Positions 2,614-48,000 of a DNA stretch of 64,000 nt are shown in pieces. Location of the stretch: contig NW_003526945.1 of the NCBI RefSeq assembly GCF_000181795.1, positions 2,859,493-2,923,492 of the forward strand, in the 5' to 3' direction. Source of the DNA: Trichinella spiralis. Its lineage: Eukaryota. Every line of letters begins with the position of its first letter. The first letter of the stretch is position 1. The translations under genes were made by a program, and so were the position numbers. Under the pieces are notes generated by a model. It was not told the origin of the DNA. It was given only the letters and a program-made list of their open reading frames with translations, and did not search any database.

Positions 2614-2654
<41 letters not shown>

Positions 2655-3190
2655 ATATAAACAGGTTATCTGTTTTGCATAGGATACGTACAAGGTATGT
2701 CTGATTTGTTGTCGCCGTTGTTGATGATTTTTGAAGACGAAGTGGATGCATTTTGGGCGTTTGTTCATTTTATGGAAAAGTCAGGCACCAATTTTGAGCT
2801 GAATCAGAGCAGCATCAAATCGCAATTTTGTCAGCTGCGATGTCTTCTTGATGTGGTCAATCCAAGGCTCAGCGAATATTTGAGTAGCTCAAATATTAAT
2901 TTTCAAACGGATTTGTCCATTTTGATTTGTACATTTTCAGAAAGCAAAGATTCTGGTGAGATGTTTTTTTGCTTTCGTTGGCTTTTGGTGTTGTTCAAGC
3001 GAGAATTTACCTTTGACGACATCTTTCGCCTTTGGGAAGTGAGTATTTTTGTACTTTCACAACAAGCGGTGGTGTAGTTGTTTAAAAAAACTCTACATCG
3101 CTTTGCATTCATATGTTTTGTACTGAGGTTCTGTATTCTTTTCTTTTCTTACAGTAAATAATTGATTGTCATGTTTTATAAGATGCTGTA
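2021..3190 (+). other. Partial near-identical duplicate of the TBC1D15/17-like gene (central exons), bounded by N gaps
   Basis: Matches ~29493-30668 almost base for base (same ORFs ...PELRKTVWKYLLG..., MSDLLSPLL...FCFRWLLVLFKREF). Flanked by 10-N gaps at 2011-2020 and 3191-3200. Differences are small indels and substitutions near the ends plus TA-repeat length. Confidence 0.85.
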
Positions 3191-27131: not shown

Positions 27132-30088
27132 GATTTTGAGGAATACTTTAAATCCGTTGCCAAAATTGAATTTTCCGACAACGTTATGTGTAGAAAAGCA
27201 ATAATAAAGATTATAAGAAAGGTAAATATTATTGAATAAAATACTATCATTGGTGAAAAAAATGTTTATACGCATACAGTAATGTTGTTTAAGATTGCAA
27301 CTTTATATTATCGTTTTGTTTCTAAGCTAAACTAAAAGTCTATACTAGTTTGTAATTGTACTATAATATAGCGTGCATTTTATGCTTGGTATAGTTGAAA
27401 GTTGTGTGCTTAATGATTTACTTTAATATATATTTTTTATTTTAATGGTAATCAGTTATTTTTAAATTTATTTAATGAATTTATTATTATTATTATGTAG
27501 TTTCTTATTTTATGATTAAAGTACTTTGCAATGCAAATTTATTAGCCACTATTTTGTTTTTCTTGTCAAGCGCTTCAAGTACAGTATTGCATTATAAATA
27601 GAGGGAAAACTGGGTTATTATTTTTTTATGAGAAAGTAGATTTAAGCTTCTATTACAGTTAACAGCTAGCATATTTAATCGATGCATGATCAACTGAAAA
27701 TATATTTTGTCCAAATTTAATTTGATTCAGCAATTAATTCTTTGAAAAGTGTGAATCTTGAAAAATTTTTGCTTCGAAAATATTGATATTTTGTTGTGTT
27801 CATGTGACTGTTCTGTGACTTGTGTTTATGTTATTATTTATTTATTGTATATATAATATTTTATTTTTGAATATTCAGAGTTGCGATTGTAAATACAGTA
27901 AACAGAAAGTTTAGTATGCTAAAACGTTTTGACAAAAGTTGGCAAATAACACCGAAGTAATAGCTTGACACCAGCATTGCAAGCATCGCAGTCACATGAA
28001 TCATTTAGTGTACGGCAGATTTTATTTGTTTAAATAACATGCATACGAAATAGTGTAATTATTACTCATTTGGAAATTTGGTTCGAGAATACGATGCTAT
28101 GATGTGTTGTGGTTATTTTTAGGATGATAATATATGGATTACTGGACAAAGAGTAGAATTAGACAGTGTGGACAGCGATGATCAGTTGACGTTTGATGGA
28201 ATTATGATGCGTTAGTAATATTTCCTTATTTTTCTCCCATGTCAAACTTTTCATATCAATTTATGCATATATTTTGATTTTTTTTGAAAATAAATACTCA
28301 CTAGTGGTTTTATAAATGAGCAGCAACTTTTTCAAAGTCTGTCTTTAAATAATGCATATTTAAAATAATTTAAATAGGATCTTGTATTTATGGAAGAAAA
28401 GTGCAGATGATAAATTCAATTTTAGCATTTCCACAGAAACGACTGGAACTGGCTAAAGGTACGATGAAGTTCGAAATAAACGTCAGTGATTTGTACGAGA
28501 TACGACCGACTATTGTTCCAGATGGCTATACGAAAATTGAACTTTTTGACGAAGGTTACAATTTGAAGAGACCAGTTCTATATTTCATCAGTGAAAACTG
28601 CATTAGATTTGTTGAAGCTCTCAAGCAACACATTAAAATTCAGGAGTATGAGCTTTTTATTGCTTTATTTGCAAATTTCAGTCACATTATATTAATACTG
28701 TTGTTATACAGCGATAATTTTAATTAAAAGGGTATTTAATTTTTAATTATGCATGATTTTTTATTTACATGCTTGACTGATTCAATTTTACATCTATTAC
28801 ATAAATATATTTATTTATTTAGAAAATTACAGCGTGGGCATTTGCATTTTATTATTAATGAGCGATCTGCAAAATTTAACAAAGCCATTGACGACCTGAT
28901 TGAAAGAAAGAACAAAGCAACTTTTATGCAAGTATGTATTTTTACGCTTTTGTTTCTGTCTTGTTGCTCATTTGCTCATCATACATTTTAGAAATGGCGT
29001 TCATCACCAACAACCACTATGATGACTAGATTGGCTGGAGTTATAGATACTTTAATGAATCCAGTCGAAATAGAGCACAGTTTCGAGGATAAAAAAAATA
29101 TGGATAGGCGACATGTTACTGAACCAATAAGCACTCAAGTGGAAGATGAATACCAATATATAAGTCATGTATGTGTAATTAATAATAATTTTTATTTTAC
29201 ATTGTGGAGAAAACGTTATCGACAAGGGTGTTTCTTGTTAAGTAATTTCACTTTATTGTTTTATAACTAATAGAAGTTTTGCGATTTTTTTTCAAAATTA
29301 GATAAATTCGTTAAATTAAAAATAATTTGTAGTAAATTTTTTCGATTTCAATTTTTTTGCAGCCAGTTAGACTACCTGCGCGTGTGAGAATTCCACGTGG
29401 AGAGCCGTTGTCGGTTCAACAATGGTTGGACCATGTAAGTGAATCTGGAGCAATTTGCGATGAAGAATCTGTGAAACGTATCATCTTCAGTGGTGTATGA
29501 TGGAAAATTGTGTTTTGTTTATTCTAGATTAAATGTTAAATAAAATTTCATTTTGAAGGGTATTGTGCCGGAACTTCGCAAGACCGTATGGAAATATTTA
29601 TTGGGAATGTACCAGTGGTCGTGGACAAAAGAGCAGTGTGAACAAAAGCAGTTGGATTTTGAACAGCGATACCTTCGCCTACGAGAACAGTGGCAACTGG
29701 TCGATGAGGATCAAGCTAGTCGTTGGACTGATTTTCGCAAATACAAAGATTTGATTGGTTGGTGATTTGTTTTTTATCCTGTGAACTATTATTGCCTCTT
29801 TATCGTAGTTTTTTATTTGAAGAAAAGGATGTTGCACGTACCGATCGTACGCATTCTTATTACGAAGGAGCGGAGAATGCGAATTTAACATTGCTGTCAT
29901 GTTTATTGATGACATACATGATGTATCACTTTGATTTGGGTACGAAGTTGAACAATTGACTTGAGAATTCGATGATAAATTTTATGGACTGTATAAGTTT
30001 AATTTTTGTGCTTTAGAAATAATTTACATATTAAGAATTGATACTGTGCTCATTTGTTAAAAAATGCATTTTATGAAATGCGTTAAGT

Positions 30089-30135
<47 letters not shown>

Positions 30136-31446
30136 ATATAAACAGGTTATCTGTTTTGCATAGGATACGTACAAGGTATGTCTGATTTGTTGTCGCCGTT
30201 GTTGATGATTTTTGAAGACGAAGTGGATGCATTTTGGGCGTTTGTTCATTTTATGGAAAAGTCAGGCACCAATTTTGAGCTGAATCAGAGCAGCATCAAA
30301 TCGCAATTTTGTCAGCTGCGATGTCTTCTTGATGTGGTCAATCCAAGGCTCAGCGAATATTTGAGTAGCTCAAATATTAATTTTCAAACGGATTTGTCCA
30401 TTTTGATTTGTACATTTTCAGAAAGCAAAGATTCTGGTGAGATGTTTTTTTGCTTTCGTTGGCTTTTGGTGTTGTTCAAGCGAGAATTTACCTTTGACGA
30501 CATCTTTCGCCTTTGGGAAGTGAGTATTTTTGTACTTTACAACAAAGCGGTGGTGTAGTTGTTTAAAAAAATTTTACATCGCTTTGCATTCATTTATTTG
30601 TACGGAGGTTCTGTATTCTTTTTTTTCTTACAGTAATATTGATTGTCATGTTTTATAAGATTCTGTAGTTAAATTCTCGGATTATCTAATTTACAGTTTG
30701 GGTTGAGAAAGAAAATTTCAAACTGTAAATTGGTCGAATGCGTTGACAACATCAAAAGTTTTTGCAATTTGTGCATTTCAATTTAAGGTGCTTTGGACTG
30801 GTTTGCCGTGCTCAAATTTTCATCTGCTGATCTGTCTTGCTATCCTGGAAATGCAGACGGACGAAATAATTCAACGTGGGTGTGGACTGGAAGATATTGT
30901 AAAGGTATATTTATTGTATGGTCATTTGCACTTTTTTTTCTTTTTCCTTTTTTTCAACACTGATTGTATTTCATTTTTTATGCGCTAATTATTGTTTTAA
31001 CAATGGATATATATTAGGGAATTTTAATGATTTATTTCCGATTTTTAATAATTAAAGAAACGCATGTTTCATTATTTTATGCGTTTCAAGATCAGTGTGG
31101 TAAGTAAACACATCCAGTTGAATAGAACTAATTCTTGTGAATGAATGAATGACCTATCGATTCTCTCTTAGTATTTTTTTATTTCTTCGTGCTACGCTTG
31201 ATAGCCTGAAAATCAAGAGATGATTTTCAATTTTGCAGACTTTTAATGTCCATTTTTAATAATTTATTCCAATTTGCGACGACATTCTAGCTCGTAAATA
31301 TGCTTGCATTCAAAATTCCGCTCGATGAAGTTTTGGTAATAGCAAATGGAATTTATCACCAGCTGGAGACTGTGCAGGAAAAAGACAAAGTTGTGGCTAA
31401 CATAAGTATTATTCTCGGATTTGAGGCGGCAGAAAATCCTGTTTGA
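27132..31446 (+). CDS. TBC1D15/TBC1D17-like Rab GTPase-activating protein (multi-exon; 5' end uncertain)
   Basis: TBC domain motifs IFSGGIVPELRKTVWKYLLG, IEKDVARTDRTH (R-finger), FDLGYVQGMSDLLSP (Q-finger), FCFRWLLVLFKREF, LWEVLWTGLPCSNFHLLIC. Last exon 31291-31446 ends ...AENPV*. Exons upstream of ~28400 (27132-27221, 28123-28210) are tentative. Confidence 0.88.
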
Positions 31447-34400
31447 TTTATAAAGCTGGCCAACATTGAACATTTATGCAGTCCGTTTGAACATTTATTT
31501 GCACACGCTTTTATTCACCTTATCTTTGCTTATTCTATTTTTATTATTTACTCATTCCATTTTCGTCCGAAATGAATGCACTGCTGTGTATCACCATTTT
31601 ACACATAGACAAAGCAGCAACGTTTATTATATTTTTGCTTGATTTTTATTTGTTTTTCATGTTTATTTTTCCGAGAAAATCCATGCCAAACTGAAGAATA
31701 GAGGAAAAAATTTTTTTTTCGTTTTACCCATTTATCGAGGTTTTAATGTTATTAAAAATTATTCAGAAGATTATTACTGTTTAATAAGAATAACGTAATG
31801 TAAAATGATCAAAAACAATATGCATATTTACATGCATGCCTAATTCGTGTGTATGCGCGAATCTGCACAGCAAGATGTCATTGCTGATGCATCAGTATCA
31901 GATACGAAATTGCACTACTACACCAGTGTTGCAAAAGTACTACTCATTCCTTGTTTCAGAATGCGTAATACATTTCGATTTTTAACTCTTAAATACTTTC
32001 ATATGGTAAAGTTGTAAAATGCAAATTTTCATGTAGCCATCATGAACCAAGTATGTTCTTGACGGAACGGCGATGTTGCCCTTGGGTCGAGTTGATTTTC
32101 AAAAAAGACGGCGAGACCTGAGGCAGCTGTCGGTACGTAGAATGATTTAGGTTATTAGTGTGTGTAGTTCGTCTGTTGTATTACGACTCTGCCTGCGCCG
32201 ATTACGCATTTGTCTTGTATTAAGTAAGTAAATGGTGCAATCATTCAAATGAGTTTTGCTTGATCCACGTTCATCAGTGAGCACGAAACAGACGCGACCG
32301 TATGTATGCATATGCAGTCCACTTGTGAGAAGGCGATTGGATTTTTATCACTAACAACGTATGCTTGTTTTTTTATTTCAATATTGTTATTTTGAATTTT
32401 TTTCTTTGGTATATGGTACATTAGTCAGATCAAAGTGCTGAGAATAAAACGGAAATACTGTCAAGTTTGGAATGGGGTTTTCTGGTAGCGTTTTCTGGTA
32501 AATGACTAGGTGGGATAATGCTAAGTGTAGACTCCGCGTCTGTCACTCGGCTTTGCCTTTACCATTGCCTTAAAATGAACCTGCTTGTCGACGTGGCTAA
32601 ATTAACTTCTTTCAATTGAAAAATCCTCTACTTTATAAGTGTATCAAATAATATTCTTTCTCTTTTGTTCAGCATAATGGAATATTTTGTATTTTGAATG
32701 CTCGGCTTGATTTGCATCAATCATTCATTGCAATCACCTACCTATTCGAGTTGAAAACTGTTTTTCTTGTTTAGTCATTTCTGTTATTATTTTCAACCTG
32801 AATATGCGCAATAAACCGAGTCAGTTTAGCGTAAAGTAAAGCGAATTTCTTAGATCTGATCAGCAGTTGTATGAATATAATTATACACAAAAATGAAACC
32901 ACAAGAAACATTGTTAATAAACTTATAATTTTGAAATGCTAATCAGCTTTTAAATTTATAATTTAGCTACTACTAATAAAAGTGGCCATTAAAAAGAAAC
33001 CGAAATTTGACAAATAGAATGCATAATAATGACAACCAGTACATTTAGCCGTCGTGTAAACCAATGAAATATAAAATGAATCAGAGTTCGGCGCGAAATT
33101 TACAAGCAATCAAATTTTGAAGCGGCGTGTCTTTGATGTCAACATCGAATGTAGCCCTCAGAAAATTATGCTAAACTGTTTTGGCAGCATAATAACACTG
33201 ATATAATGTTTTTTTATAAAATTTAATTTATTTTGCGAGCAGTCAGTTATTATTGCTGATTCAGGGTTGTTGTGTAGATGAGCTAATAATAATCTGATGC
33301 TGGGGTTTACATTTTCCACACTATCCACTACACTCAGAATGCATGGCATTAAAATGCTGGCAAGTTGAATAATATTTTTATTATATGAATGAATGAATGA
33401 ATGAATTATAGATCATTTAATGGGATATTTTCAAAAATAGTAATTTACAAAAGTAGAATGAATTATAAAATAAAAAGTTCAAACGCATTGCAAATGCATG
33501 TGAAACTAATAAGTATTAAATGTATCAGCAAATATTTTTCTAGTTTTGAAATTTCAATATTCTGTCAATAGAGCATTGATGATAATAAAATTAAATGATG
33601 AGATATCATTGTGGATAATGAGTGATAATGAATGAGATTGATAATCAGGGCGAAACCACTGCTTTATTCCAACTGCAGCTTCGTCCCCTTTTCAGTGATA
33701 CGGTTTTCTTTTTGACCAACTCTTCTTTCAGATTTACCACTTTGGGACAGTAACGATTTGTTTTGCCAAACTTTCTTATAAGCTAAATATTTATATTATT
33801 CTACTAATTCTGTAATTACACAAATTGTGTTCTTACATATTTTGCATATTTCTCCGGCACATTGAAATACAACAAAACAAGTACGTAGAATGGAATGAGG
33901 CCAATTATGAATATGATAATGACTATCCTTACTGAAATGTTAATAAAGCGTTTATTATTATTATACACGAGTAATGGTAATTTGAAACATGGGCATTTTT
34001 CTGTTGAATATTTTTCGCTCTAATAATTAAACAATAGTCATTTATTTATTTAACAGTTGTTTTCCACAAAATTTATGGAAAAGCGAACATAGATTATTTG
34101 AATTCAGAAAATTCGAATATAGCAGTTTAGCATTTTGGTGTTAATATTGAAAGGAAGTTTGAAAAAATGAGAGTAAATTCTTACTTTTTTCGACTTTTAG
34201 CTGTGCTTCGAAGTAGTCATCAATCGTTTTTTCTTGTAATTCTTTCTTGGAACGTTTATAATCTATTAAAAAAAATTTTATATAATGTAACGAAACTGAA
34301 AGTTTGAAAGTATTCAAATTTTTATCTATTAATTAGTGAAATGGAATTTTGATTATGGAAAGTTTGAATTTACATCGTGCAGTTTGCAAACATTAAAACA

Positions 34401-34555
34401 AAACTGGGAGAACAGTAAATAAATGACTTGATGTGATATTAAATTTTTACGATTTTATATAATTCTGAAATGGTGACCAAATGATCAATAAATAAATATG
34501 CCGTTTATACCTTTTTCCAGGTAGAATTCAGAAATTTTTTTGATGNNNNNNNNNN

Positions 34556-34765
34556 CAACCCGCCTAGTCTCCAGCCCAGAAAACCACCCCCGCGGCAACA
34601 CCAGAAGCCGGTTACGAAGTCTACAGCGCATTGATCCGTCCCGAACCAACGGAACCACATTGCCGCATGACTTCGATTTCGCTTTTGCTCTTTTTGTATT
34701 TAATTTTGCTATTAACAATTCAGTTTGTTAACTGTTTTGTATTCATTTGAAGATCCAAATAAAAC
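34556..34765 (+). mobile_element. 3' end of a Utopia-like non-LTR retrotransposon copy (remainder hidden in gap)
   Basis: Follows the N gap at 34546-34555. Closely matches the ORF end and 3' UTR of the long copy (~42646-42855) and ends GATCCAAATAAAA. Confidence 0.85.
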
Positions 34766-34922
34766 TCTGTTCTTATCAGCTTAATTTCTGGTATGAATCC
34801 CAAGCGGATTCGTTACGAAATTTGCATAAGTTTTTGAAAAAATAGGCATTTGGTCGAGTGCTCGCACCACCATTTGTCGCGGGTCGTCCTGATATTGCAC
34901 TACATTCAGGAACGGCCTATTC
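34766..34922 (+). ncRNA. U2: U2 snRNA 3' portion (from about nt 39 to the end), copy 1
   Basis: Begins TCTGTTCTTATCAGCTTAATTTCTGGTA, the U2 sequence immediately after GTGTAGTA. Has stem IIb GAATCC/GGATTC, Sm-like AGTTTTTGA, stem III, and stem-loop IV GGGTCGTCCTGATATTGCACTACATTCAGGAACGGCCT. Confidence 0.85.
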
Positions 34923-35498
34923 CCTTCGGGGAATTGTGTTTTAGGAATTGGAATCGGTTTGGTTACGATCGGTCGAGTGGTTCGTGAGATCGAGTGACAG
35001 CCGGGTGGCAGCGACAATGTGTAGTGCAAAGACACCAGCCTTGAAGTCGGGTCGCCGTCGCGGAAAAGAGGTCAACTATGAAGGCCAAATTGTACGGGTA
35101 GAAAGACGGCGTGGATCTCGCAGTAGTACGAGCGCAACGGACCTTGGTACGAGGATGGTTACGCGTGGGCGAAAGAAGCTGATGGAGGCGTCGGTTCGTG
35201 AAGCGGGTCACCACGGAGGTGAATCGGCGAGCACTGTGGACGTCGCCGTGGTGGAATCGAAGAAAATTACGGGTAAAACGGCGCGTCGTACGAGAAGAGC
35301 GCCTTCGCTGCGAAACCTTCGCGGCATCACCGGGAGCCGGTAACGAAGCAGAAAGCTAAACAGCCCGTCCCGAAGCAAGCGCCTGGCTACGCCTCATGAC
35401 TTCGATTTGATTTTGGCTGTTTTTCGTATTTTAAATTTTGTTTCCTTACAATTCAGTTTGTTAATTGTTTTGTATTGTTTGACGATCCAAATAAAATT
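34923..35498 (+). mobile_element. Short internally deleted derivative of the retroelement (unit A)
   Basis: Element head (MCSAKTPALKSGRRRG...MVTRGRKKLMEASV, matching ~37947-38232) is joined at ~35303 to a diverged element tail and 3' UTR ending GATCCAAATAAAA. Confidence 0.8.
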
Positions 35499-35655
35499 TC
35501 TTTTTTTAACAGCTTAATTTCTGGTATGAATCCCTAGTGGATTCGTTATGAAATTTGCATAACTTTTTGAAAAAGTAGGCATTTGGTCGAGTGCTCACAC
35601 CACCATTTTTCGCGTGTCATCCTGATATTGCACTATATGAAGGAACGGCCTATTC
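35499..35655 (+). pseudogene. U2 snRNA 3' portion, copy 2 (more diverged)
   Basis: CAGCTTAATTTCTGGTATGAATCCCTAGTGGATTC...CCTGATATTGCACTATATGAAGGAACGGCCTATT, with substitutions in the Sm region and stem IV. Confidence 0.75.
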
Positions 35656-37820
35656 CCTCCGAGGAATTGTGTTTTACTATTTGAATGTGCAAGTATTGGA
35701 ATCTGTCAAGTGGTTCGATGGATAGCATGACAGCCGGGTGACTGCGTGGATGTGCAGTACAAAGATGCCAGCTTTGAAGCAAGGTCGCCGTCGTGGAAAG
35801 GAAGTAAGCTGTGTTGTTGTAATGGACAACGCGAATAGAGGGCGTGGATCTCGAACAAGTTAGAGCGCAACGGACCTTGGTACGAGGATGGTTACGCGTG
35901 GGCGAAACAAGCTTATGGATGTGCCGGGAGTAAAAGTTGTTGCTGAAGTAGGTCATAACGATGCAGGGTCGACGAATGCTTTTGTCGTCGTAGTGACGGC
36001 TAATGAGAAATAATGTAATATGTCGCAGAAAACGGATGAGGACGACGGAAATGAGGCGTCTCTTATCTACGTTAAAGTACCTGAGTGTCAGTAGTAATGT
36101 ACTGTAGATACTGTAGTGACGCAATAGCTGTGCTTTGTTGCTGTTTTTCTACCCAGTCGTTGGTTTGTCGTTGTTGGAATATTGCTTTTTGTGTATCTGC
36201 ATTTTCGGTGGAATATTCATTGATTCCTTGCTTTATTATCCATGGTACACTATTATTCATGTTGAGTGAACTGTGTGGACACTCGAACTAGTTTCGATTG
36301 ACGGTTTTCATATCAGAAGTCTGTGCTATACGGTTAAGGTCGGATTGTCGAGCATATTTGACTTTCCCACCTTCAGATACCTACAAAATGATACAGTCCA
36401 CTTAGTTTGCGAGCGAGTGAACCCGTAGCTTGCTCGTTACAACGACTACAAGGACGGGACGTATGATAAGAGCGACGATAGATGATGAAATTGATTATTG
36501 TGGCCAAGCTAGTTCGAGTTATGGTACCACCATTATAGTTTCGGTCATGCTAGTCCGAAAACGTCCCCGTCGTCACCAACTACTACGGCAACTTCGAATA
36601 GACCACGTACACCATCCATCTCCAAGCGCGGTGCGAGATCAGAACTTCCGTACACGCCGGCTTTTATTACACCATCTACTTCCGGCGGTTCGGGTAAGCA
36701 ACGTGTTTTGGTGTCGTTGTTGCTTAGGACGGTGGAATTGCACGACCTCGAAGTTTTCCAAATAACGGAGGAACAAGTCACTGTACGGGCAGTTTTTCCC
36801 ATTGCCCAGGCGGTGGTCTGCCACTGAGATGCGAGAAACTGTTAACGGCCGTGAGAGCGTACGGCCAGTTTGCGCGCCTATCGTTGACTGGACATTTTGT
36901 CCGTGTTCACAAATACCAAAACCAGCAGTGACAATATCGTTGTCGTAAATGTAATACGGAATACTTGCCGACAGGCGACCGATATCCCCTCCGGGTTTTG
37001 AACACTTATGTTCGCAGTTCTGTTAGCCGGTGGAAGATTACCCGGAAAATGGGAGAGAGCGAAGATTTGCATGGAGTTCAGTGCGATGATTGCGATTACG
37101 TTTTCCATGTCGAAAAGAACCGTCGTTATGCATAGCCTCCGGCACGCCAACAAGAACATTATGCAAATTACTGGTAAGGCCGTTCAAATCGAGGCCTTGA
37201 GCAAACAAGTCGGCTATATAAATGTTGTAGCACGCGACTATAGTCAGTTTCAGTTTGGTAAGCGGGTTCGGCAATACGTGGCACCAACAGAAAGGCAGTT
37301 GTTGGTCGATGATGAAATTCGTGAAGCCGAAGAAGAGGAGGAACCAGCTGAACCACGTACCATTCTAGGTGAATCCAGCACCGCAACTGCTATAGAAGCT
37401 GTGGGGATCTCTACATGTGGTCCTGTTCGAGCAGACACAGCTGCTAAGCAGATGATCTGCCGGATCGGGCAATGGTGTGTCTGTCCGCGGGACTACCATT
37501 CGATCCCGGCACTTCAGTGCTGGACAGACACGTTGATGGATTTAATGATTGAACAAATCGTTCTGCACCGCTATCCGGACGGTGCGGGAGTGGGCGTGAT
37601 GAGCTGCGCAGCATTGAGCGCCTCCTTGCACCACCAGATATCTGCAGAGTTTGCTACCCAGGTCATGTCATCTCATGATGCCAGTTTCGTGCCGTTCCTG
37701 CGAGCTTGTGTAATCACTTGCAAATGATTGTTCAGCATTGAAGCAGCGGCGCCGTCCATATAAAGAGGTCATTGCTGCTTCCCAGGCGATATTGCGTAAA
37801 TTCAGGGACACTTCACTAGT
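35656..37820 (+). mobile_element. Older, decayed 5' half of the retroelement (unit B), truncated before the RT
   Basis: Diverged colinear match to ~37860-39280 (head, Ser/Pro/Arg-rich region, zinc-finger region, QIEALSKQVG...FGKRVRQYVAPT) with frameshifts. Carries extra downstream coding sequence (~37440-37727) absent from the long copy. Confidence 0.75.
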
Positions 37821-37852
37821 TGGTATTGCACTGCATTCCGGAACGGCCTATT
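37821..37852 (+). pseudogene. U2 stem-loop IV remnant heading the long retroelement copy
   Basis: TGGTATTGCACTGCATTCCGGAACGGCCTATT aligns to the end of the other U2 copies and is followed by the element head. Confidence 0.6.
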
Positions 37853-38080
37853 CCCTTTTGCGAACTGAGTTTTCGAAATTGGTTATGGAACGGTTTGACG
37901 AGGTCGAGTACTTCGTGAGATCGAATTAAGCCGGCTGTCAGCGACAATGTGTGGTACAAAGACACCTGCCTTGAAGTCGGGTCGCCGTCGCGGTAAAGAG
38001 GTCAACATTGGAAGTCAAATCGAACGAGAAGACGGCGTGGATCTCGCAGTACTACGAGCGCAACGGACCTTGGTACGAGG

Positions 38081-39307
38081 ATGGTTACGCGTGGGCGAAA
38101 GAAGATGATGGAGGCGTCGGTTCGTGAAGGAGGTCACCACGGAGGTGAATCGGCGAGCACTGTGGACGTGGACGTGATGAAACCTACGAAGAAAATTACG
38201 AGTAGAACTGCGCGTCGTAATAGAAGAGCGCCGAGTGGTGATGGAACAAGAGGAGAGAGTTGTGGTGCGGAATGTAGCCAAGCCGATTCAGACAGCGGTA
38301 ACGCTGTTGCGGACCGTAGTGAGGCCACTTCGCCCCGCACTCGCAACACGAAGAAGTCTGGTCAACTTGTTGTTAAATCTGGTCGTGACAACATTAAAGC
38401 CTCCACACCATCACCACCGAAAAGAAGACCGACCACTTCGAGTAGCCCACGCACGCCATGCCTCTCCAAGCGCGGAGCGAGATCCAAAATTCCGTCCACG
38501 CCAGACACACCATCGACTTCTGGCGGTTCAGGTAAGCAACGTGTTTTGGTGTCGCCGTTGCTTAGGACGGAAAAATTGCCCGACCTCGAAGTTCTCCACA
38601 GAACTGAGGAACAGGTGACTGTACGGGCAACTTTCCCAATCGCCCAGGCGGTGGTCTGCCCACTGGGATGCGAGAAACCGTACACGGCCGTGAGACCAGA
38701 CGGTCAATTTGCGCGCCAAACACTGACTCGTCATTTCATGCGAGTCCACAACTGCCACAGCGTCCAGTGGCATTACCGGTGTCGCAACTGTAATACGGAT
38801 TTCTTGCCGGCAGATCACCGGTATCCCCTCCGAGTTGTGAACACCCACGTTCGCAGCTGTGTTAGCCGGTGGGAGATAACCCGGAAGTTGGGAGAGAGCG
38901 AAGATTTGCATGGAGTTCGTTGCGATCTTTGCGATTACGTAGGCGTGTCGAAAAGAGCCGTCCGATTGCATCGCCGCCGGCACGCCAACGAGAACGTTAT
39001 GCAAAATACGAGTACGGCCGCTCAAATCGAGGCCTTGAGCAAACAAGTCGGCGAAATACGTGTAGCAGGCGACTATAGTCAGTTTAAGTTTGGTAAACGG
39101 GTTCGGCAATACGTGGCACCAACGCAGAGGCGATACGGGTTGGACAACGAAGATGTTCGTGAAGCCGAAGAAGAGGAGGTGCCTGCCGAATCACGTACCA
39201 TCCTAGGTGAACCCAGCACCGCAACTGCTATAGAATCTGATGAGATCTCTTCTCGTGGTTCAGTTCGAGCGGACTCGTCTGTACGACATCGGCGTGAACT
39301 TCAGTGA
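38081..39307 (+). pseudogene. N-terminal (zinc-finger) part of the retroelement ORF
   Basis: 408-aa open frame with three Cys/His finger-like motifs. The natural start is probably ATG 37947 (MCGTKTPALKSG), now separated by a small deletion relative to the copies at ~35017 and ~43107. Confidence 0.8.
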
Positions 39308-40482
39308 TCGGGAGTCGGCGGCTTTGTGCACCGACTTCAAGTTTATGACCGATGCAGTAGCATCTCCCGTCGTACCGGCGACGGATAAACTAAAGAAAAT
39401 TCCTGACGGCTCAGCGACTCTGTTGACCCAGTTCCAGCAGAAGTTCCTGAGCGCTTCTGTCAACTGGCTGTCTTATGATGTTGACGTGCAAGCGGTGTAT
39501 GACGAAATGGTGGAGAGCATGGTGTCCGGACACAATGTACCGAGCTCGTAACACCAGCCGTTTGCAATAGAAAAGTCCGGGTAAAGGAGGTAAAGGACAG
39601 GTTCGCCTACGCAGTGCGGTAACGCGTGACCCGGCATGGCTGAAATCTGCGTCAGCGGTTCAAAAGGCGTTCAATTCGGCACCGGCCCATACTGTGAATG
39701 CAATCCTCCGGCGTCCGAATGCCTGTCCTTCCTTTACAGCCACGCAAGTGGCTGACCACTACTTTAATCTCAGACCGGCGGTTACCTCGCTTGCACCCGA
39801 GGTTATTGACATCTTACCTCCGCCCGCCACTGACCACTCGATGCTTGTTGCGGAGTTGAGTGAGTCGGAGGTCTGGGAAAAGATGCAGAAAGCACCCAAC
39901 TCTGCTCCTGGTGCGGACAGGATCACCATTCGTATGGTGCGAGTGGCTGATCCAGGTGCTTTTCTCACCAGGTTCTACCGTGCTTGTTTATCGAAAAAAT
40001 GGGCGCCCCTGCAATGGAAGCAATCCGTGTGCAAGCTCCTTTACAAGGACGAGGATAAGGAACGCCTCGCCAACTGTCGGCCTATCCCCCTGCAACCCGC
40101 CGTAATGTTTGGTAAATGGGTTCGGCAGTACGTGGCACCAACACTAGGGCAGAAGACGTTGTAAGACCAATTTATGCCCGAAGAAGAGGATGCGCCAACC
40201 GTACCACGTGGCATTCTACGTGAGACCAGCAGTGCAACTGTTATAGAACCTGAGGAGGTCTCTGCTCCTGTTCCAGCTAGAGCTGTTCCAGCTGCTCAGC
40301 AGTTGATCCACCAGATCAGGCAATCGTCTCTTGCTGCACGTACGACCCGCTGAATTATGACGTAGACAGCTCGTGTTACCTCCGAGCACAACTTCGTCAT
40401 GGAAGTTGCTATACAATAGGCAGGACGCACTAACGCACAGCTTGCCATCAGTTGGTTAGACATCTCCAACGCCTTTGGCACA

Positions 40483-42723
40483 GTGTCGCACCAAGTTTTG
40501 TTTTCGTTGTTGGATCGTTATGGGCTGGACCCGACGTTTACCAGTTTTATCAAGAATTTGTACAAAGACGCGACAATTGTTGTCAAAGGCGCCAATGGAA
40601 CCCACGTTACCGCGCGCTGGTCAGTCGGAGTACGCCAAGGTGACCCTTGCAGTGGTATCTTGTTTTGTCTGTTTGTTGAGCCACTCTTGCGGTCAGTCTT
40701 ACCTGCTTTACCGCGTGAGGCGGAAACGACTGCGGTTAACGTGTTAGGACAGCCGATCACAGCGCTGGCTTACGCTGATGACATCGCGCTGTTCGCCCCA
40801 TCCATCGGGGTTATGCAGCAACAGCTGTGCAAAATCCAGGGCATGGCCAGCGCCATGGGCTTTCGGTTCAACCCGAAAAAGTGCGCGTCCCTGTACTTGA
40901 ATCGTGCAGTAGTGAATGCCGCAACATTCACGATAAGCGGGGAGGAAATACCTGCTCTCGTACACGGGGACACTTTTCGCTATCTTGGAGTAGCCGCTGG
41001 GCTGGGTAAACCCCAGACTCCTTTCTCATTACTGCGTGAGAACCTCGGAGAAGCGGAACTTATATTCCGGTCAAAGCTGGCTCCGTGGCAGAAGATGGAT
41101 GCGTACCGGACTTACGTACTGCCACGTTTGACATTCCAGCTCATGATTGCCAAATTTAACAACATCAAGCAATCAGCCGGGCAGTATGACCGCGCAATAC
41201 TGAGGCTCGTGAAGCGTTGCTTCCAGCTTCCGGTGGAGACGTCCACCGACTTCATAAGAGCCCCCAGACAGTGTGGTGGTCTGGGCGTGCCATCATTGCG
41301 TGAGTTGTACGCAACCGCAAAGGTTTCGCGGGCACTCAAGATGCTCTGGTCTCCCTGTCGGGTAGTCTCGAGCCTGGCAGCCAGTCAGCTTCAGCGAGTT
41401 GCGTCCGCGTACTTTGCGAAGAGGTTGAGAGATGTTGAGGCGGCTGACCTCTCTACCTTCATGAACGCCGCGCGATCTACGCCGCTAGATCGGTCAGGGT
41501 ATCCGACTTGCTTGTGGATGGACGCACGCAAGCAGATGTCGTACCTGACAAAGGTAGCCGGCGTTGACTGTTACTTCCTCGTTGGCGAGGCTGGGACCTC
41601 TTTCTTCATCCGGAATGGCCTCGGTCAGACGGTCTCAGTTCTAAGCCCCTTGAGGAAGAACAAAGTTATGAGCGTTTTAGGGGGGGCGATCCAAACTCGC
41701 CATCTGGACGCCTGGCTCCAATGCAAGCGTCAGGGTAAGACTGCGAGCTGTGTTGTACTCGACCGGTCTTCTTCCCGTTTTATTACGACTGGAAGATACA
41801 CCAGCTTTGCTGCTATGCGCTTTGCGTTGCCCGCTCGCCTGGATTTGTTACCTTGCCGGGCGAGATCCTCTATGCGTTCGTACCAGAACTGTCGGCGATG
41901 TGGTTACGACCGAGAGACCCTGCCGCACATCCTTCAGCACTGTCGGCAGTTCAGCGCCCCCGCTTACCAAGTCCGGCATGACGCAGTTCAGGGACGCCTG
42001 GAAACGGTCATGCGTAGGCGGTTCCCCAACCTCCGCGTAAACCGGGCTCTACCGGAGATTGGGTCGAACAAGCGGCCTGATCTTGTGGTCGTCGACGAGG
42101 AAAAGCGGTTAGTGATTCTGCTAGATGTCGCAATCGTGTTTGAAAACACTGCCGCTGCCTTCGTCGATGCCCGGACCAGGAAGTGGGCGCACTATGAAAA
42201 GGAGATCCTCGCCTACCGGCTACGAGGATACTCCGTGACGTACGACGCCATCGTCGTCGGTGCTCTGGGGACGTGGGACCCGAAGAACGATGCCATCCTG
42301 AAAAGGATCGGTGTCGTCTCCCAAAGGTACCTACGGCTCATGAAGGTTCTCGTGGTGTCCGAGATGTTGGAACATTCTTCACGGATCTACAGAAAACACC
42401 TCGGCCTGCGAGACCTTCTCCCGGACACCGGCACGAAACGGCGACCGGTTGGCACGACGGAGACAGACCCACCCGGTGGTGATCTCCGTCAGAAGAAGCG
42501 CAACTCCATCAGCGCTACGGCATCAGGTGGGAAATGCCTGGAACGGCGGTTCACGTCACCCGTCGGGACGCCCTCGCAGCGTGGTGAGCTGCAGTGCCAA
42601 CCGTGCCCTGGCCCTAGAAGACCCGCCCTCGCTGGAAAAGCGCCTATCCCGCCCAGACTCCAGCCCAGAAAGCCACCCACGCGGCAACACCAGAAGCCGG
42701 TGACGAAGTCTACAGCGCCTTGA
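40483..42723 (+). CDS. Reverse transcriptase (C-terminal part) plus CCHC and restriction-like endonuclease of the retroelement (fragment)
   Basis: 746-aa open frame with QGDP, YADD, YLG, a CCHC knuckle and a PD-D-K-type nuclease. The frame extends upstream only as far as the TAG at 40417. Confidence 0.9.
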   Translation: MSHQVLFSLLDRYGLDPTFTSFIKNLYKDATIVVKGANGTHVTARWSVGVRQGDPCSGILFCLFVEPLLRSVLPALPREAETTAVNVLGQPITALAYADDIALFAPSIGVMQQQLCKIQGMASAMGFRFNPKKCASLYLNRAVVNAATFTISGEEIPALVHGDTFRYLGVAAGLGKPQTPFSLLRENLGEAELIFRSKLAPWQKMDAYRTYVLPRLTFQLMIAKFNNIKQSAGQYDRAILRLVKRCFQLPVETSTDFIRAPRQCGGLGVPSLRELYATAKVSRALKMLWSPCRVVSSLAASQLQRVASAYFAKRLRDVEAADLSTFMNAARSTPLDRSGYPTCLWMDARKQMSYLTKVAGVDCYFLVGEAGTSFFIRNGLGQTVSVLSPLRKNKVMSVLGGAIQTRHLDAWLQCKRQGKTASCVVLDRSSSRFITTGRYTSFAAMRFALPARLDLLPCRARSSMRSYQNCRRCGYDRETLPHILQHCRQFSAPAYQVRHDAVQGRLETVMRRRFPNLRVNRALPEIGSNKRPDLVVVDEEKRLVILLDVAIVFENTAAAFVDARTRKWAHYEKEILAYRLRGYSVTYDAIVVGALGTWDPKNDAILKRIGVVSQRYLRLMKVLVVSEMLEHSSRIYRKHLGLRDLLPDTGTKRRPVGTTETDPPGGDLRQKKRNSISATASGGKCLERRFTSPVGTPSQRGELQCQPCPGPRRPALAGKAPIPPRLQPRKPPTRQHQKPVTKSTAP

Positions 42724-42855
42724 TCCGTCCCGAACCAACGGAACCACATTGCTGAGTGACTTCGATTTTGCTTTTGCTCTTTCTGTATTTAATTTTAATT
42801 ACTAACAATTCAGTTCTGAAACTGTTTTGTATTCATTTGAAGATCCAAATAAAAA

Positions 42856-43012
42856 TCTGTTCTTATCAGCTTAATTTCTGGTATGAATCCCAAGTGGATT
42901 CGTTACGAAATTTGCATAAGTTTTTGAAAAATTAGGCATTTGGTCGAGTGCTCGCACCACCATTTGTCGCGGGTCGTCCTGATATTGCACTACATTCAGG
43001 AACGGCCTATTC
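42856..43012 (+). ncRNA. U2: U2 snRNA 3' portion (from about nt 39 to the end), copy 3
   Basis: Nearly identical to 34766-34922. Stem IIa TATCAG/CTGGTA (42864-42883), stem IIb GAATCC/GGATTC (42885-42901), Sm-like AAGTTTTTGA (42918-42927), and stem-loop IV with loop TATTGCACTACAT. Confidence 0.87.
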
Positions 43013-43578
43013 CCTTCGGGGAATTGTATTTTAGGAATTGGAAGTGGAACGGTTGCGATCGGTCGAGTGGTTCGTGAGATCGAGTGACAGCCGGGTGGCA
43101 GCGGCAATGTGTAGTGCGAAGACACCAGCCTTGAAGTCGGGTCGCCGTCGCGGAAAGGAGGTCAACTGTGAAGGCCAAATCGAACGGGTAGAAAGACGGC
43201 GTGGATCTCGCAATAGTACGAGCGCAACGGACCTTGGTACGAGGATGGTTACGCGTGGGCGAAAGAAGTTGATGGAGGCGTCGGTTCGTGAAGCGGGTCA
43301 CCACGATGGAGTAACGACGAGTGCCTAGGTCGTCGACGTGGTGAATAATGGAAAGAAGCGTATTGCTCCACAGAATACGTTTAAAGATGTGTGGCGCAGG
43401 AGAAGAGCTCCGGAACCGAAAGCCGGAACCGAAGTCCAAACCCGAGCCACCCGTCCCGAATCAACGGTCTGGTTGTGCTGGAAGATATTGTTATGACTTG
43501 TGATCTTTTTGTATTTAAATTTGGCTCTTTTTAGGAAATCAGTTTCTACTATTTTGTACTTTAAAGTTCCAATAAAAA
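43013..43578 (+). mobile_element. Short internally deleted derivative of the retroelement (unit D)
   Basis: Head nearly identical to unit A up to ~43304, then a diverged stretch through GAGAAGAGCTCC into a tail with CCCGTCCCGAA and a T-rich 3' UTR ending CCAATAAAAA. Confidence 0.75.
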
Positions 43579-43733
43579 TCTGTTTTTATCAGCTTACTTT
43601 CTGGTATGAATATGTTATCGGCTTCGTTAGAAACTTGCATAAGTTTCTACGAAAATACACATTTTGTAGCGTGCTTGCACCGTCATTTTCGCGAGTCGTC
43701 CTGATATAGCACTACATTCAGGAACGGCCTATT
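43579..43733 (+). pseudogene. U2 snRNA 3' portion, copy 4 (diverged)
   Basis: TCTGTTTTTATCAGCTTACTTTCTGGTATG...GTCGTCCTGATATAGCACTACATTCAGGAACGGCCT. Stem IIb and the Sm region are degraded. Followed by a decayed element head (~43734-43900). Confidence 0.75.
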
Positions 43734-43984
43734 TCCTTCGGGGAACTAGTGATCGAAGTATTTGGAATAGCACTTGGACGATTACAAGTTGTTCTTGAGA
43801 TCGATTGCCAGGCGGGTGGCAGCTGCGATTTTCATTGCAGAGACAGCAGCATTGAAGCAGCGCTTCCGTCCAGTTAAAAAGGTAACTGCCGCTGCCCTAG
43901 TGGCTCCATCGAATGGTATTTCGATGGAGAAAAAAGGACAGCGTTAATGTCACTCAATTCGTTTGAGTACATGCGCATCAGACC

Positions 43985-44365
43985 TGCGGACTCTTCGACA
44001 CGGCAACGTAATCGCAAAGATCGCACCGAACTCCATGCAAATTTTCGCTCTCTCCCAATTTCCGGGTTATCTCCCACCGGCTAAGACAACTGCGAACGTG
44101 AGTGTTCACAACGCGGAGGGGATATTGGTGGTCTGTCGGCAAGAATTCCGTATTACAATTACGACATCTGTATTGCCACTGGAAGCTGTGGCAACTGTGG
44201 CCTCTGACAAAGTGTCGAGTCAATGTTTGGTGCGCAAATTGGTCATCTGGTCTTACGGCCGAATACGGTTTCTCGCATCCCAGTGGGCAGACCACCGCCT
44301 GGGCAACTGGGAAAGTTGCCCGTACAGTCACCGGTTCTTTGGAGAACTTCGAGGTCGTGCAGTTC
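43985..44365 (-). mobile_element. Inverted fragment of the retroelement zinc-finger region
   Basis: Minus strand encodes VTVRATFPVAQAVVCPLGCEKPYSAVRPD...CRNC...CDLCDYVAVSK, matching ~38580-38955. Confidence 0.85.
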
Positions 44366-44388
44366 TTCATTAGACCTGCATCAGAATA

Positions 44389-45070
44389 TTCGTCGAAAAT
44401 TTGCCCGCGTAGTCTCTTTTTGCTCACGTCAAACGTGATTGGTAGATACGGAATTTACCAATTGCTGGGTGGAGTCTCTTTTAGCTCACGCTGGCCAATG
44501 TTTATTCTGTACTGTAACACTGCTGACTGTGATTCTAACATTTTTCATATTTGAATTGTTTTCCATTTTCCACTTTCTATTTCAATTAAATTTTTCATAT
44601 CTGATTTGTTTTACATTTTCTAATTTCCAAATTGAACAGTGTTAGAATATATCATAAAATTTGATGAGGTAGTAGAGTTGATAATATTGGAATTATTGAA
44701 AATGCAATTAAAATTATTTAAAATTGGAATGTGATTATTTTGAAAACTGATACGGATAATATTGCAGCCAATTGACAATTAGAAGTAATTAACGAATGAA
44801 ATATTACAATATATCAAAAAATGGATCTTCGACTAATGTAACCGAATGAAAAGCATTTGAATAACATCGAATGATCGTTAGACAAGTCTCGTTTGCAAAT
44901 AACGGCCGGCGTGAGCTAAAAGAGACTCCGTCGAGCAATTGGAAAATTCCGTGCCTAGCAATCATGTTCGGCGTGAGCGAAAAGAGACCATCGAACAATT
45001 GAAAATTTCGTATCTACCAATCACGTTTGGCGTGAGCGAAAAGAGACTACGCGGGCACATTTTCGACGAA
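44389..45070. mobile_element. Foldback/MITE-like element with long inverted arms built of ~60-bp subrepeats
   Basis: 44389-44496 is the reverse complement of 44904-45070, except that the right arm has one extra ~60-bp unit (core GCGTGAGC(T/G)AAAAGAGAC three times versus twice). The spacer is AT-rich and ~400 bp. No clear TSD was seen. Confidence 0.55.
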
Positions 45071-48000
45071 ATGCGAAGCGACACACCACCACGCTAGTAT
45101 AAACGTAGTCGTGGCAGGCGAGCGACCGCAGTTCTCGTTTGACGTTGTGTTCAGTGCGATGATTGTGTTGCGCCGTTCATGTGTGTGTGTGCGGGCGTGT
45201 TTATGAGAAGCTTTTGATCTTTGTCAACTAATGATCATTTACATCCTGCGTATTACATTATTTATATGCACGGGTGGATGGGTTCCAGCGAAAATGGAAA
45301 GTAGTGATATGTTGCTGGTTAATCCATTTGTGTATTCGATTGGTGGAGAAGTGCAGTAAAGTAGTTTTGTCAGTGGAACAAAAGTCAGTTGCTATAAATA
45401 TGAAAAAAATGCAGTCGACAACGATCAAATGAAGAAGGGATGACGTCACTATCTTGGATTGTCGCTATCTTGGATAATTCATCATCACTTTTCACGGGCA
45501 ATTCCGTTCGACAAAACGGCAACCAGTAATCACGAACGAGCAGAACAGCCACTTCAACGCAATCCACCTGTGTCTAAGCTCAGAGCGAGAACCGAACTTA
45601 TATTTCAAAGTTGTTAGATCTTTGTCGTTATATGATTACTTGTAAATACGTTTATTTGTCTTTGGGCATTTGTTTTATTGCATAACTATCGGTAATGGCC
45701 TATTCTGTGCTGTGCTGTTTGGAAGTGGTGCAAGTTGATGAAAATTTGTTTTTGATCAATAAATTTCACTGAGAATTACACTTGCCTGAGTTTATTTTTA
45801 TCTTTGTCTGTTGCTGCACATGTAGAAGCTGGAAATTTCTGATTGTGTGCAACGAATGAAGCTATCGTTGTTGTTATCATGTCTACTTAACCACCGGGTG
45901 AGTGCAGAGGAACGACGCCCGCAAGATGTACATGCAGTTGAGAACAACCGGCAGGCACTTTGTCAGATTATCACAATTCATTACAGTTGATGCGGAAAAT
46001 GTAAAATGAATTTTTAATGCATAATATTCAAAATATTAAAAGCAAAACAAAGCTGACATCCAAACAAGTTACTTTCGAAATAATTTACAAACGTCAGTGT
46101 TGTTCGTTGAATTTCAGTACAAGGAAAGTACAAATATTGGGTTCATTTTATGAAATCTACAGCCTTTTTAGAGGAAAAATGATTTTCAAATCTGTAAAAA
46201 AATTTGTAAGATGTAGTATATTAGATTTTCACCGAAATGATCCACTTTTCATCATTTTTTGAGACTGTAATTTGTAAAAGTAAAGATTGTTATTGATTGA
46301 GATGACCGTGGGAAAGTTTTTCTTTTTTTTTCTTTTGTTTTTTTAATTTTAATTTTTCCTTTTTTTTAAAACTAATCTACAGTCTGTATAATGTTGTCTA
46401 ATAATTTCAAAAGAGTGTACAGTTAGTTCATTTCCATCAGCTGAGGATACTGTAGGAGAAGTTCGTTCTTCATTTTATTTTTTTGTCCTGAAATTGCGTC
46501 ATGGTTTTTGCCGCATTTTATTACCAAGAATCCTTTACATCAGTTCTACGGCTCTGTGAGAATTCTTTTTCTTGTTTTATTTTTTTTAAGTTTTCTTTTT
46601 TTTCTTCAAATTAACGCGCTTGAAATTTTCAATTCTCTCTGATGTTTATAATTATTATAATGTTGTTGTTGTTTGTTTTTGCATATCATCGTCAGTGAGC
46701 CTTTGGCAGCAATTTTGATAACATTCCATTGTTTATCGTTTGAAAATTTGCCGTTTTGTGTATTTGCCGCATTTTATCGTCAACAAGCTATAATTATTAT
46801 TGTTATAATTATTGGTATGGGCATGTTAAGTGAACTAGACATTTTGATGCTTTTCAATTTTTTTCATTTATTTTTCCTCGACATTAACGTCCCAATTTGC
46901 GTCTTTGTTACGAAGCTTACATCTGCTTTCACGTTTCAGTTTTCCTTTGAATCAAAAGAATCCAACTATTTGCAATTTTGCGCTACTTTTCCCCCCTCCA
47001 ATCGCATCCATTTTCTAGGAACCCGTTCAGATTGTCGGACAATTGTAAAATGAAATTTCAGAATTCGTTTTTGTTCATTTACATTTTGTAACAGTATGCA
47101 CGCATTTTATTTCTGAAAAAAGCCAGCCGTTGGTAAAGGATTGAAAATAATTGCTCTTTCATTTCACAAAACAACGCTGAAAGATGCACCTTTTACTGTG
47201 ATTCTTTGCATTTCATCGCAGATATCTTATCTGTGGGCGTTCAAAAATCCCTCAAGAAACATTCGTTCTTAAAAGTTCATTTTCATTTACTTCTATGGAA
47301 AATAGACAGTCGAGCTTGAATTTAAATTCTTTTGATTCTCGTAAGCGCATTTTTTCACATTTTCACTAGCAATGCTAACTTCACTTACTGTCGAATTATA
47401 AATGAATCACGCTGATAGAGTCATTTTAAGATGTTGTCATTTATTCAATTCAACATAAAATGTATCAAGGAAAAATAATTAAAAAACTAAATCCAACTGA
47501 TAAAAAATTCTTACCTCGATCGGGAACACGTTGCCTAAAATCACGGGTCTGTCAGTGGAAAATTGTCTTGTTAGGCGTCGCCATTGACGAGCTGAATTTT
47601 AGATCAAGCTTAAAAATGAATTTTTCCCTTCAACATTTTATCACTTGAAAAGTATCGTAAAGTGTTTTTTCCTTGAACGATTTTGAAAAATAGTAAACAA
47701 AATTGGGAAACTTGATTTTCACTTGTGACACTACAGTCACTGGTGAAAATTTCAAACTGGGCATTATGTACGGCGTGAAAATTTTTACGTTTTTTACGTG
47801 AAGAAATTATGATATGATTTTTATTTTAAAAGAGAAAAAGTAGCTTGTGTAATGAATTATTAGTAATATTGTCCGGGTAATGTGGAGTAAGTATATCGCG
47901 TTTGATGTGCTGTGTGAAACGACTTGCACATTCAACTCTCTGATTTGTCAAAGTTGACCATGCAAGTAGTGTAATATGAACTGTTTTGATGATCGGGTTG

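What the first reader, a model, noticed from the sequence alone, without database searches (positions are those of the whole stretch)
34556..43900. U2-targeting retrotransposon array in which every unit is headed by the 3' part of U2 snRNA: a possible target-regenerating element
Seen: all four element 3' ends (34765, 35498, 42855, 43578) end in AATAAAA(A) followed by U2 sequence starting at about TCTGTTCTT, just after the branch-point-recognition motif GTGTAGTA. All five U2 3' pieces (34766, 35499, 37821, 42856, 43579) run straight into the element head, never into unique host DNA. No U2 5' end (ATCGCTTC...AAGATCAA.GTGTAGTA) lies between units. Established: Utopia elements are RLE non-LTR retrotransposons that insert in U2 genes near this position and would normally split the gene. 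Inference: the 3' ~155 nt of U2 is the element's own 5' leader. Insertion would then rebuild a complete U2 gene from host nt ~1-38 plus the element-borne remainder, keep the element under the U2 promoter, and recreate the target so that further copies stack head-to-tail. This is analogous to phages that restore the tRNA gene they integrate into. I cannot confirm whether this has been described before.
Basis: partly seen in the sequence, partly recalled or inferred. Interest (0 to 1): 0.92.

Follow-up and report, generated by a model that had tools for sequence, protein, structure and literature searches.

The report
Retrotransposon likely rebuilds its U2 target
In a Trichinella worm genome, decayed copies of a known jumping gene (Utopia) are stacked head to tail, each behind the back part of a U2 splicing-RNA gene, a layout that likely arises because each insertion rebuilds a whole U2 gene in front of itself instead of destroying it.

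Summary
The stretch is a decayed array of Utopia-1_TSP, the published U2-targeting non-LTR retrotransposon of Trichinella; its 3' junctions are already in print. The observation mostly holds. Four tails run into U2 at nt 39 (human numbering) and no U2 5' end lies in the window. However, the fifth piece (37821) is only ~36 nt with no tail before it, and only one unit keeps an RT.

New here: (1) the element start lies 107-108 nt behind a U2 anchor in 5 of 5 heads, whose 5' UTRs are only 59-90% identical to copy a, and copy bodies diverged under purifying selection. (2) A published complete T. spiralis U2 has a 3' part identical to 34766-34925, and public contigs carrying that part run unbranched into the element head. 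An intact U2 gene therefore probably leads the array, and insertion probably regenerates it.

No single record shows that lead junction. Whether the duplicated U2 comes from element RNA (read-through, favoured) or from a ~168-bp target-site duplication, as in R9, is open. The same layout is published for Phytophthora Utopia, read there as target deletion. Verdict: new variant of a known kind, moderate interest.

The parts
34546..34555 (.). Assembly gap; hides the upstream (lead) end of the array
   Evidence: N run; DNA upstream is AT-rich with no element or U2 similarity
34559..34765 (+). Element tail (ORF end and 3' UTR with AATAAA); last 70 nt as published for Utopia-1_TSP
   Evidence: S1 Fig of PMC4640811
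34766..34925 (+). U2 snRNA 3' part, copy a (from nt 39, human numbering); reads the same as the 3' part of a published complete T. spiralis U2
   Evidence: Rfam 81 bits; compared by eye, block by block, with supplement 3 of PMC2396436; stems III and IV fold, z -3.5
34920..34933 (+). Short hairpin at the U2 3' end, kept in all five copies; a similar one follows a second U2 type elsewhere in the genome, so likely a host 3'-end signal
   Evidence: 12-15 of 15 identical to copy a; fold; loose ends at 34911
34934..35303 (+). Element head a: 83-nt 5' UTR, ATG at 35017, first ~96 codons; then an internal deletion
   Evidence: 98% identical over 97 aa to the N-terminus of P0098
35315..35498 (+). Older element tail; closes the 733-bp deleted unit
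   Evidence: 72% to the full tail; joint seen in runs X1 and X13
35499..35658 (+). U2 3' part, copy b, decayed
   Evidence: Rfam 39.6 bits; 138 of 153 identical to copy a
35667..37727 (+). Decayed element b: head (ATG 35750), zinc-finger region and start of the Ulp1-like protease; RT and tail missing
   Evidence: tblastn to P0081/P0098/P0102; protease row of S5 Fig against ORF 37002-37727
37733..37783 (+). Stray fragment of an e-type element head
   Evidence: 41 of 51 identical to 43847-43897
37821..37864 (+). U2 stem IV remnant (~36 nt) plus hairpin, copy c; not preceded by a tail
   Evidence: junction also in runs X1 and X2
37865..42855 (+). Longest element copy c: ATG 37947, zinc fingers, most of protease deleted, inserted repeat 40108-40323, RT (YADD at 40771), CCHC knuckle (41890), RLE (RHD 41974, RPD..D 42073), stop 42723, 132-nt 3' UTR; broken ORF
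42856..43015 (+). U2 3' part, copy d
   Evidence: Rfam 87 bits; 151 of 153 identical to copy a
43024..43578 (+). 723-bp deleted unit after U2 d: head (ATG 43107) to ~43411, then an old tail 43415-43578
43579..43745 (+). U2 3' part, copy e, most diverged (stems IIa and IV kept; IIb, Sm site and III changed) plus hairpin
   Evidence: Rfam 48 bits; 120 of 153 identical to copy a
43746..43980 (+). Old e-type element head, ATT in place of the start codon (43828)
   Evidence: 52% over 46 aa to the N-terminus of P0081
43991..44368 (-). Inverted fragment of the element's zinc-finger region; ends the array
   Evidence: 86% to 38570-38955

Best explanation
This is a decayed head-to-tail array of the Trichinella retrotransposon Utopia-1_TSP in which the 3' part of U2 sits at a fixed distance in front of every element head, likely because the element is transcribed by read-through from an intact U2 gene that leads the array and would rebuild that gene at each insertion. 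Steps: (1) shown: tails join U2 at nt 39, and U2 3' part + hairpin + 82-83 nt UTR + ORF form one fixed block. (2) Inferred, well supported: an intact U2 gene with this 3' part stands directly before an element head. (3) Inferred: RNA polymerase II sometimes reads through the U2 3' end to the AATAAA in the element tail, giving a U2-element RNA. (4) Established for the RLE class: the endonuclease nicks the target and primes reverse transcription from the RNA 3' end. (5) Inferred by analogy with R2: the cDNA end, complementary to U2, anneals to the U2 5' piece left upstream, giving promoter-U2(whole)-new element-U2(39-end)-older element. The U2 gene count stays the same, the newest copy gets the promoter and a fresh target, and older copies are pushed downstream and decay.
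For: Fixed register: start codon column 107-108 nt behind the stem IV anchor in 5 of 5 heads, while their 5' UTRs are 59-90% identical to copy a. Purifying selection between bodies that both carry the U2-head junction: b vs c dN/dS 0.51, Fisher p 0.001, so the junction was passed on through replicating lineages. U2 pieces are better conserved than the tail and head beside them (a vs b 90% against 77% and 65%; a vs d 99% against 87% and 90-94%; a vs e 78% against 65% and 55-59%). A published complete T. spiralis U2 has the same 3' 160 nt. In run X1 one 391-nt contig starts exactly at 34766 and runs without a difference to 35156 at depth 538, against 41-59 for contigs of single decayed copies; X13 and X16 also cross the U2 end into the head. 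A published full unit begins 19 nt behind the previous tail, with no spacer. Precedents: uniform R2 5' junctions arise when the RNA carries target sequence, and earwig R2 carries 22 bp of downstream 28S at its 5' end (PMC3774820 passages); SLACS is reported to be transcribed from +1 of the SL RNA gene it interrupts (PMC3447711 passage).
Against: No record seen holds U2 5' end, 3' part and head together; the link rests on joining with contig topology, contigs drop rare variants, and 6 of 23 loose ends were not shown. The order of copies is not a simple young-to-old gradient (U2 identity to copy a along the array: 100, 90, fragment, 99, 78%), so DNA-level deletion and recombination also shaped the array. 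A long target-site duplication gives the same DNA, and 126 bp is reported for R9. Head dN/dS values (0.50-0.66) rest on few codons, and the repeat at 40108 shows none (1.18). For the like Phytophthora layout the authors prefer deletion of the target's 5' part.
Confidence: 0.5

Rival explanations
1. Long target-site duplication. The RNA starts at the element head; the second nick falls ~168 bp downstream of the first, just past the hairpin, so host U2(39-end) is duplicated on both sides of each insertion. The target is still regenerated, but from DNA.
For: The U2 piece equals host U2 and is more conserved than the element. R9 makes a 126-bp duplication, reptile Utopia a 20-bp one, and nicking-deficient R2 protein gives large duplications in cells.
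Against: The U2-head junction would be remade at each insertion, yet it holds to within 1 nt in 5 of 5 diverged heads; R2 junctions made without homology vary.
Confidence: 0.25
2. DNA-level origin. One ancestral deletion or recombination put a head behind a U2 3' part, and unequal crossing-over or gene conversion spread the unit; or each insertion deletes the target's 5' part back to a previous U2 gene (the published reading for Phytophthora).
For: 34559-35215 and 42648-43305 are 94.5% identical and the match then drops abruptly; young heads are joined to old tails; copy order is not monotonic.
Against: Purifying selection between lineages that keep the junction; heads related to those of other Trichinella species keep it too; there is no spacer or promoter DNA between U2 and head in any of 5 copies.
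Confidence: 0.12
3. One reading: the element RNA begins exactly at U2 nt 39, so the U2 3' part is a true element leader joined bluntly to the host 5' piece.
For: Same layout evidence as the best explanation; all four long pieces start at nt 39.
Against: nt 39 is simply the nick site; snRNA genes have upstream promoters and no reported internal one; no ribozyme was found that could cut there.
Confidence: 0.1
4. The array is a mis-assembly.
For: An N gap adjoins it, and the window holds a duplicated 1.17-kb piece elsewhere.
Against: Copies differ by 1-45%, and the b, c and e junctions recur in independent runs.
Confidence: 0.03

Closest known systems
Utopia-1_TSP of Trichinella spiralis (Kojima and Jurka 2015, PMC4640811)
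   Same: Same family: identical 3' junction, Ulp1-like protease, RT 97% identical to a T. spiralis protein. Three published junctions on one contig have the sequences of 34765, 35498 and 42855 and spacings of 731 and 8089 nt (window: 733 and 8090), so this locus or its counterpart was among those listed.
   Different: The text read does not discuss the Trichinella 5' junction. The published element starts 19 nt into U2, so it includes most of the U2 piece without comment. Fig. 1C and the Repbase entry could not be seen.
Phytophthora Utopia arrays (same paper, S2 and S3 Figs)
   Same: Elements separated by U2(39-end) only, with intact U2 genes found upstream of copies.
   Different: Read there as deletion of the target's 5' part, with diverged intergenic DNA. 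Here there is no spacer and the register is fixed, which that reading does not predict.
R9 of Adineta vaga (126-bp target-site duplication; seen only through citing passages)
   Same: An RLE element with a long copy of downstream target in front of it.
   Different: The duplication is a small part of 28S rDNA and cannot complete the gene; here it covers all of U2 downstream of the nick plus the 3' hairpin.
R2 elements that carry 28S sequence in their RNA (PMC3774820)
   Same: Co-transcription with the target gene and homology-guided 5' joining; earwig R2 propagates 22 bp of downstream target.
   Different: R2 frees itself with an HDV-like ribozyme and inactivates the unit; none was found here, and the gene would be restored.
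SLACS/CRE of trypanosomatids
   Same: RLE elements in a small-RNA gene, reported to be transcribed from the gene's +1.
   Different: Described as interrupting the SL RNA gene; a different clade and target.
SINEU of crocodilians (PMC4494074)
   Same: U2-derived sequence at the 5' end of a retroposon.
   Different: Non-autonomous, 5' U1/U2 heads, not inserted in U2 genes.

Membership tests
Utopia (NeSL clade) | Reverse transcriptase | tested here: met
   RVT_1 E 4e-19, YADD at 40771
Utopia (NeSL clade) | C-terminal CCHC knuckle and PD..D restriction-like endonuclease | tested here: met
   CRRC..H....C at 41890, RHD 41974, RPD..D 42073; invariant in 26 aligned proteins
Utopia (NeSL clade) | 3' junction at U2 nt 39 | tested here: met
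   4 of 4 tails
Utopia (NeSL clade) | N-terminal zinc fingers | tested here: met
   Cys/His motifs in ORF 37997-39307; Pfam zf-H2C2_5 only weak, E 0.011; 88% to P0098
Utopia (NeSL clade) | RT groups with Utopia/NeSL rather than R2 | tested here: met
   Quick tree of 26 rows: with three Trichinella proteins (100), inside a 23-row group (96) apart from two 28S-flanked elements; long branches, deep forks open, rows labelled by host only
Utopia-1_TSP | Published 3' end and Ulp1-like protease | tested here: met
   3' 70 nt match; protease start in copy b, mostly deleted in copy c
Utopia of arthropods and reptiles | 5' junction: U2 5' piece joined to the element with no or a 20-bp duplication | tested here: not met
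   0 of 5 heads; all follow the U2 3' end. The lead copy was not seen.
Target-regenerating insertion (proposed) | Complete U2 gene directly ahead of the lead element | tested here: inconclusive
   Indirect support; no single record
R2-type co-transcribed elements | HDV-like ribozyme at the 5' end | tested here: not met
   No Rfam hit other than U2 at E <= 1 in 30000-48000; 34915-35020 folds no better than shuffles, z 0.71. A divergent ribozyme could be missed.
R9-type long target-site duplication | Second-strand nick far downstream; duplicated DNA absent from the RNA | not testable with these tools
   Needs RNA ends or a nicking assay

The most novel reading that the evidence does not exclude
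One of the few working U2 genes of Trichinella is permanently the lead unit of a retrotransposon array: Utopia is made as a read-through of U2, rebuilds the gene at each insertion, and so lives in an essential low-copy gene at no cost in gene number. The same strategy would explain the Phytophthora arrays and how Utopia persists with so few targets.
Probability: 0.45. Interest if true: 0.7.

Novelty: new variant of a known kind. Interest (0 to 1): 0.5.

Why it matters
The paper that defined Utopia calls its survival in a gene with about ten copies a surprise and appeals to population genetics. If insertion regenerates the target, the puzzle largely disappears: the element never uses up U2 genes and always hands its newest copy a promoter. 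It would be a non-LTR counterpart of phages that restore the tRNA gene they enter (analogy from general knowledge), and a natural model for non-disruptive site-specific insertion. The claim can be tested with one long-read data set and a 5' RACE.

Tried and rejected
No whole genome is held for this window, so other arrays and the lead unit could not be read. Sequencing runs: 20 of 24 listed rows hold the stretch; no RNA holder listed. Run X2 has no cover at 34681-34880, which is no finding. Summed depths around 34766 could not be resolved into tail and U2-5' contributions. Metagenome relatives: 80 loci fetched; 20 of 80 scanned with Rfam gave 0 U2 hits and two 28S flanks; three U2 motifs over all 80 gave two isolated loop matches only, so generality was not tested. 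Idea dropped: that the array's U2 is an element-specific variant with a broken Sm site; the published complete U2 has the same AGUUUUUG, and one of two published T. spiralis U1 genes has a like site. No ribozyme found. The NeSL-1 paper was not held. Supplement 1 of PMC2396436 was cut before the U2 records, so the flanks and the other T. spiralis U2 genes were not seen. Literature searches found no paper stating that Utopia regenerates U2; subscription papers, Repbase and figures are outside the library. Earlier scan notes: none for this genome or sequence.
Full report
What is there. Between an assembly gap (34546-34555) and an inverted fragment (43991-44368) lie pieces of at least five copies of one non-LTR retrotransposon, all on the + strand. 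Rfam finds four U2 matches. In each, similarity to U2 begins at nt 39 in human numbering, and the bases before it are an element tail ending in AATAAAA. A fifth piece at 37821 is only ~36 nt of stem IV and follows a broken body, not a tail. The motif GTGTAGTA does not occur on the + strand of the window. Only the copy at 37865-42855 keeps RT and endonuclease, and its ORF is broken.

Identity. The tail and junction at 34765 are those published for Utopia-1_TSP (PMC4640811, S1 Fig). The RT-endonuclease piece is 92% identical to a T. zimbabwensis protein and 97% to a T. spiralis one. CCHC and RPD..D motifs are present, and copy b holds the start of the Ulp1-like protease. A quick tree puts it with Trichinella proteins inside the Utopia/NeSL-like group, with weak deep forks. 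The element and its 3' target are therefore known. All 14 junctions listed for it run into U2 at nt 39.

Is the U2-head junction part of the replicating unit? Three results say yes. First, the start-codon column lies 108, 108, 107, 108 and 107 nt behind a stem IV anchor in the five heads, although their 5' UTRs are 59-90% identical to copy a. Second, bodies b and c, both with this junction, differ with dN/dS 0.51 over 252 codons (Fisher p 0.001), and the inverted fragment differs from c with 0.16. Selection on an element's protein implies retrotransposition between these copies (inference). Against this, the head comparisons are short (0.50-0.66), and the repeat at 40108 shows no constraint (1.18). 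Third, the published full-length unit starts 19 nt behind the previous tail on its contig (5978 and 5958), so full units abut with only the U2 piece between them.

Is a whole U2 gene rebuilt? The U2 pieces are more conserved than the tail and head beside them in all three full comparisons, so they track a constrained gene. A published complete T. spiralis U2 has a normal 5' end of about 42 nt and a 3' part that reads the same as 34766-34925 (PMC2396436 supplement 3, compared by eye). In run X1 a contig starts exactly at 34766 and runs unchanged to 35156 at depth 538, about ten times that of single decayed copies (41-59; a rough ratio, not a copy number). In X13 a contig spans 34858-35027, and in X16, a second organism label, one spans 34728-35058. 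Had the intact gene another 3' flank, or a head another upstream neighbour, these contigs should break near 34930 (inference from how such assemblies work, recalled). None of the 17 loose ends shown, of 23, marks such a break for the main type. This stays indirect: no record shows the whole junction, and contigs drop rare forms. A second U2 type with other flanks also exists in these runs, so the worm likely has free U2 genes too.

How it most likely works. I favour read-through. The lead U2 gene sometimes transcribes on into the element, the RLE nicks another intact U2 at nt 38/39, and the U2-complementary cDNA end anneals to the 5' piece left upstream. R2 elements whose RNA holds target sequence give uniform junctions in this way, and earwig R2 passes on 22 bp of downstream target. 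The product is whole U2, new element, U2(39-end), older element. No 5' piece appears between units because only intact genes would be cut. The duplicated block ends just past a hairpin shared with the second U2 type, which may keep 3'-end formation intact (inference). The main rival is a ~168-bp target-site duplication: 126 bp is reported for R9. It predicts the same DNA but must remake the junction to within 1 nt each time. Copy ages are not in strict order, and young heads are fused to old tails, so deletion and recombination have reworked the array whichever route built it.

Comparison with print. For Phytophthora the Utopia paper reports arrays separated by U2(39-end) and intact U2 genes upstream of copies, and explains this by deletion of the target's 5' part. 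In Nasonia, tails are often joined straight to another copy, unlike here. I found no statement that Utopia restores U2. Fig. 1C and Repbase were not visible and may bear on this. Seen: PMC4640811 text parts 1-4 of 5, S1 Fig part 5 of 8, S2 Fig, S3 Fig part 1 of 2, S1 Table and two rows of S5 Fig; passages only of PMC3774820, PMC8869645, PMC13188248, PMC3447711, PMC4494074, PMC12278014, PMC3706591, PMC6895275 and PMC13486585; supplement rows of PMC2396436; the R9 paper itself not at all. Two earlier scan notes describe like layouts at U1 and U4 genes in other genomes; they are unchecked leads, not support.

Verdict. Known element, known locus type, and a layout with published precedent, but with good evidence here for a different and testable meaning: insertion that regenerates an essential low-copy gene. 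Odds: regeneration by any route about 0.85, by read-through RNA about 0.5. New variant of a known kind; interest 0.5.

Noticed in passing
public runs X1 and X13 laid on window 34860-34911: Contigs of a second U2 type with a different stem III, changed stem IV ends and a similar 3' hairpin followed by other DNA. Not in the window. Probably free U2 genes; T. spiralis also has two very different U1 genes.
   Followed up: partly
window 34766-35498 and 42856-43578: Two internally deleted units (733 and 723 bp) break at the same head codon and resume at nearly the same tail position, at an AGAAG/AGCC-like microhomology. They are 86-100% alike per 50-nt bin over the first 450 nt and 44-66% after. Possibly an old non-autonomous lineage with refreshed 5' ends, or a deletion hot spot.
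   Followed up: partly
window 34750-34765: The element tail ends with AAGATC about 10 nt before the junction, as the U2 5' piece does before the same site; could be chance or partial target mimicry.
   Followed up: no
window 44389-45070: About 680 bp bounded by ~100-bp inverted repeats (88% alike) with internal ~60-bp repeats: probably a MITE or DNA transposon next to the array.
   Followed up: no
window 2021-3190 and 29493-30667: A 1.17-kb piece between two N gaps is a 98% copy of DNA at 29.5 kb that holds part of a RabGAP-TBC gene; likely an assembly duplication.
   Followed up: no
run X1 at window 34652: A further tail type absent from the window appears as a loose end; several tail types share one U2-head sequence.
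   Followed up: no
L007 and L011: R2-like elements with 28S rDNA at their 5' side in metagenome contigs; used as outgroup.
   Followed up: partly
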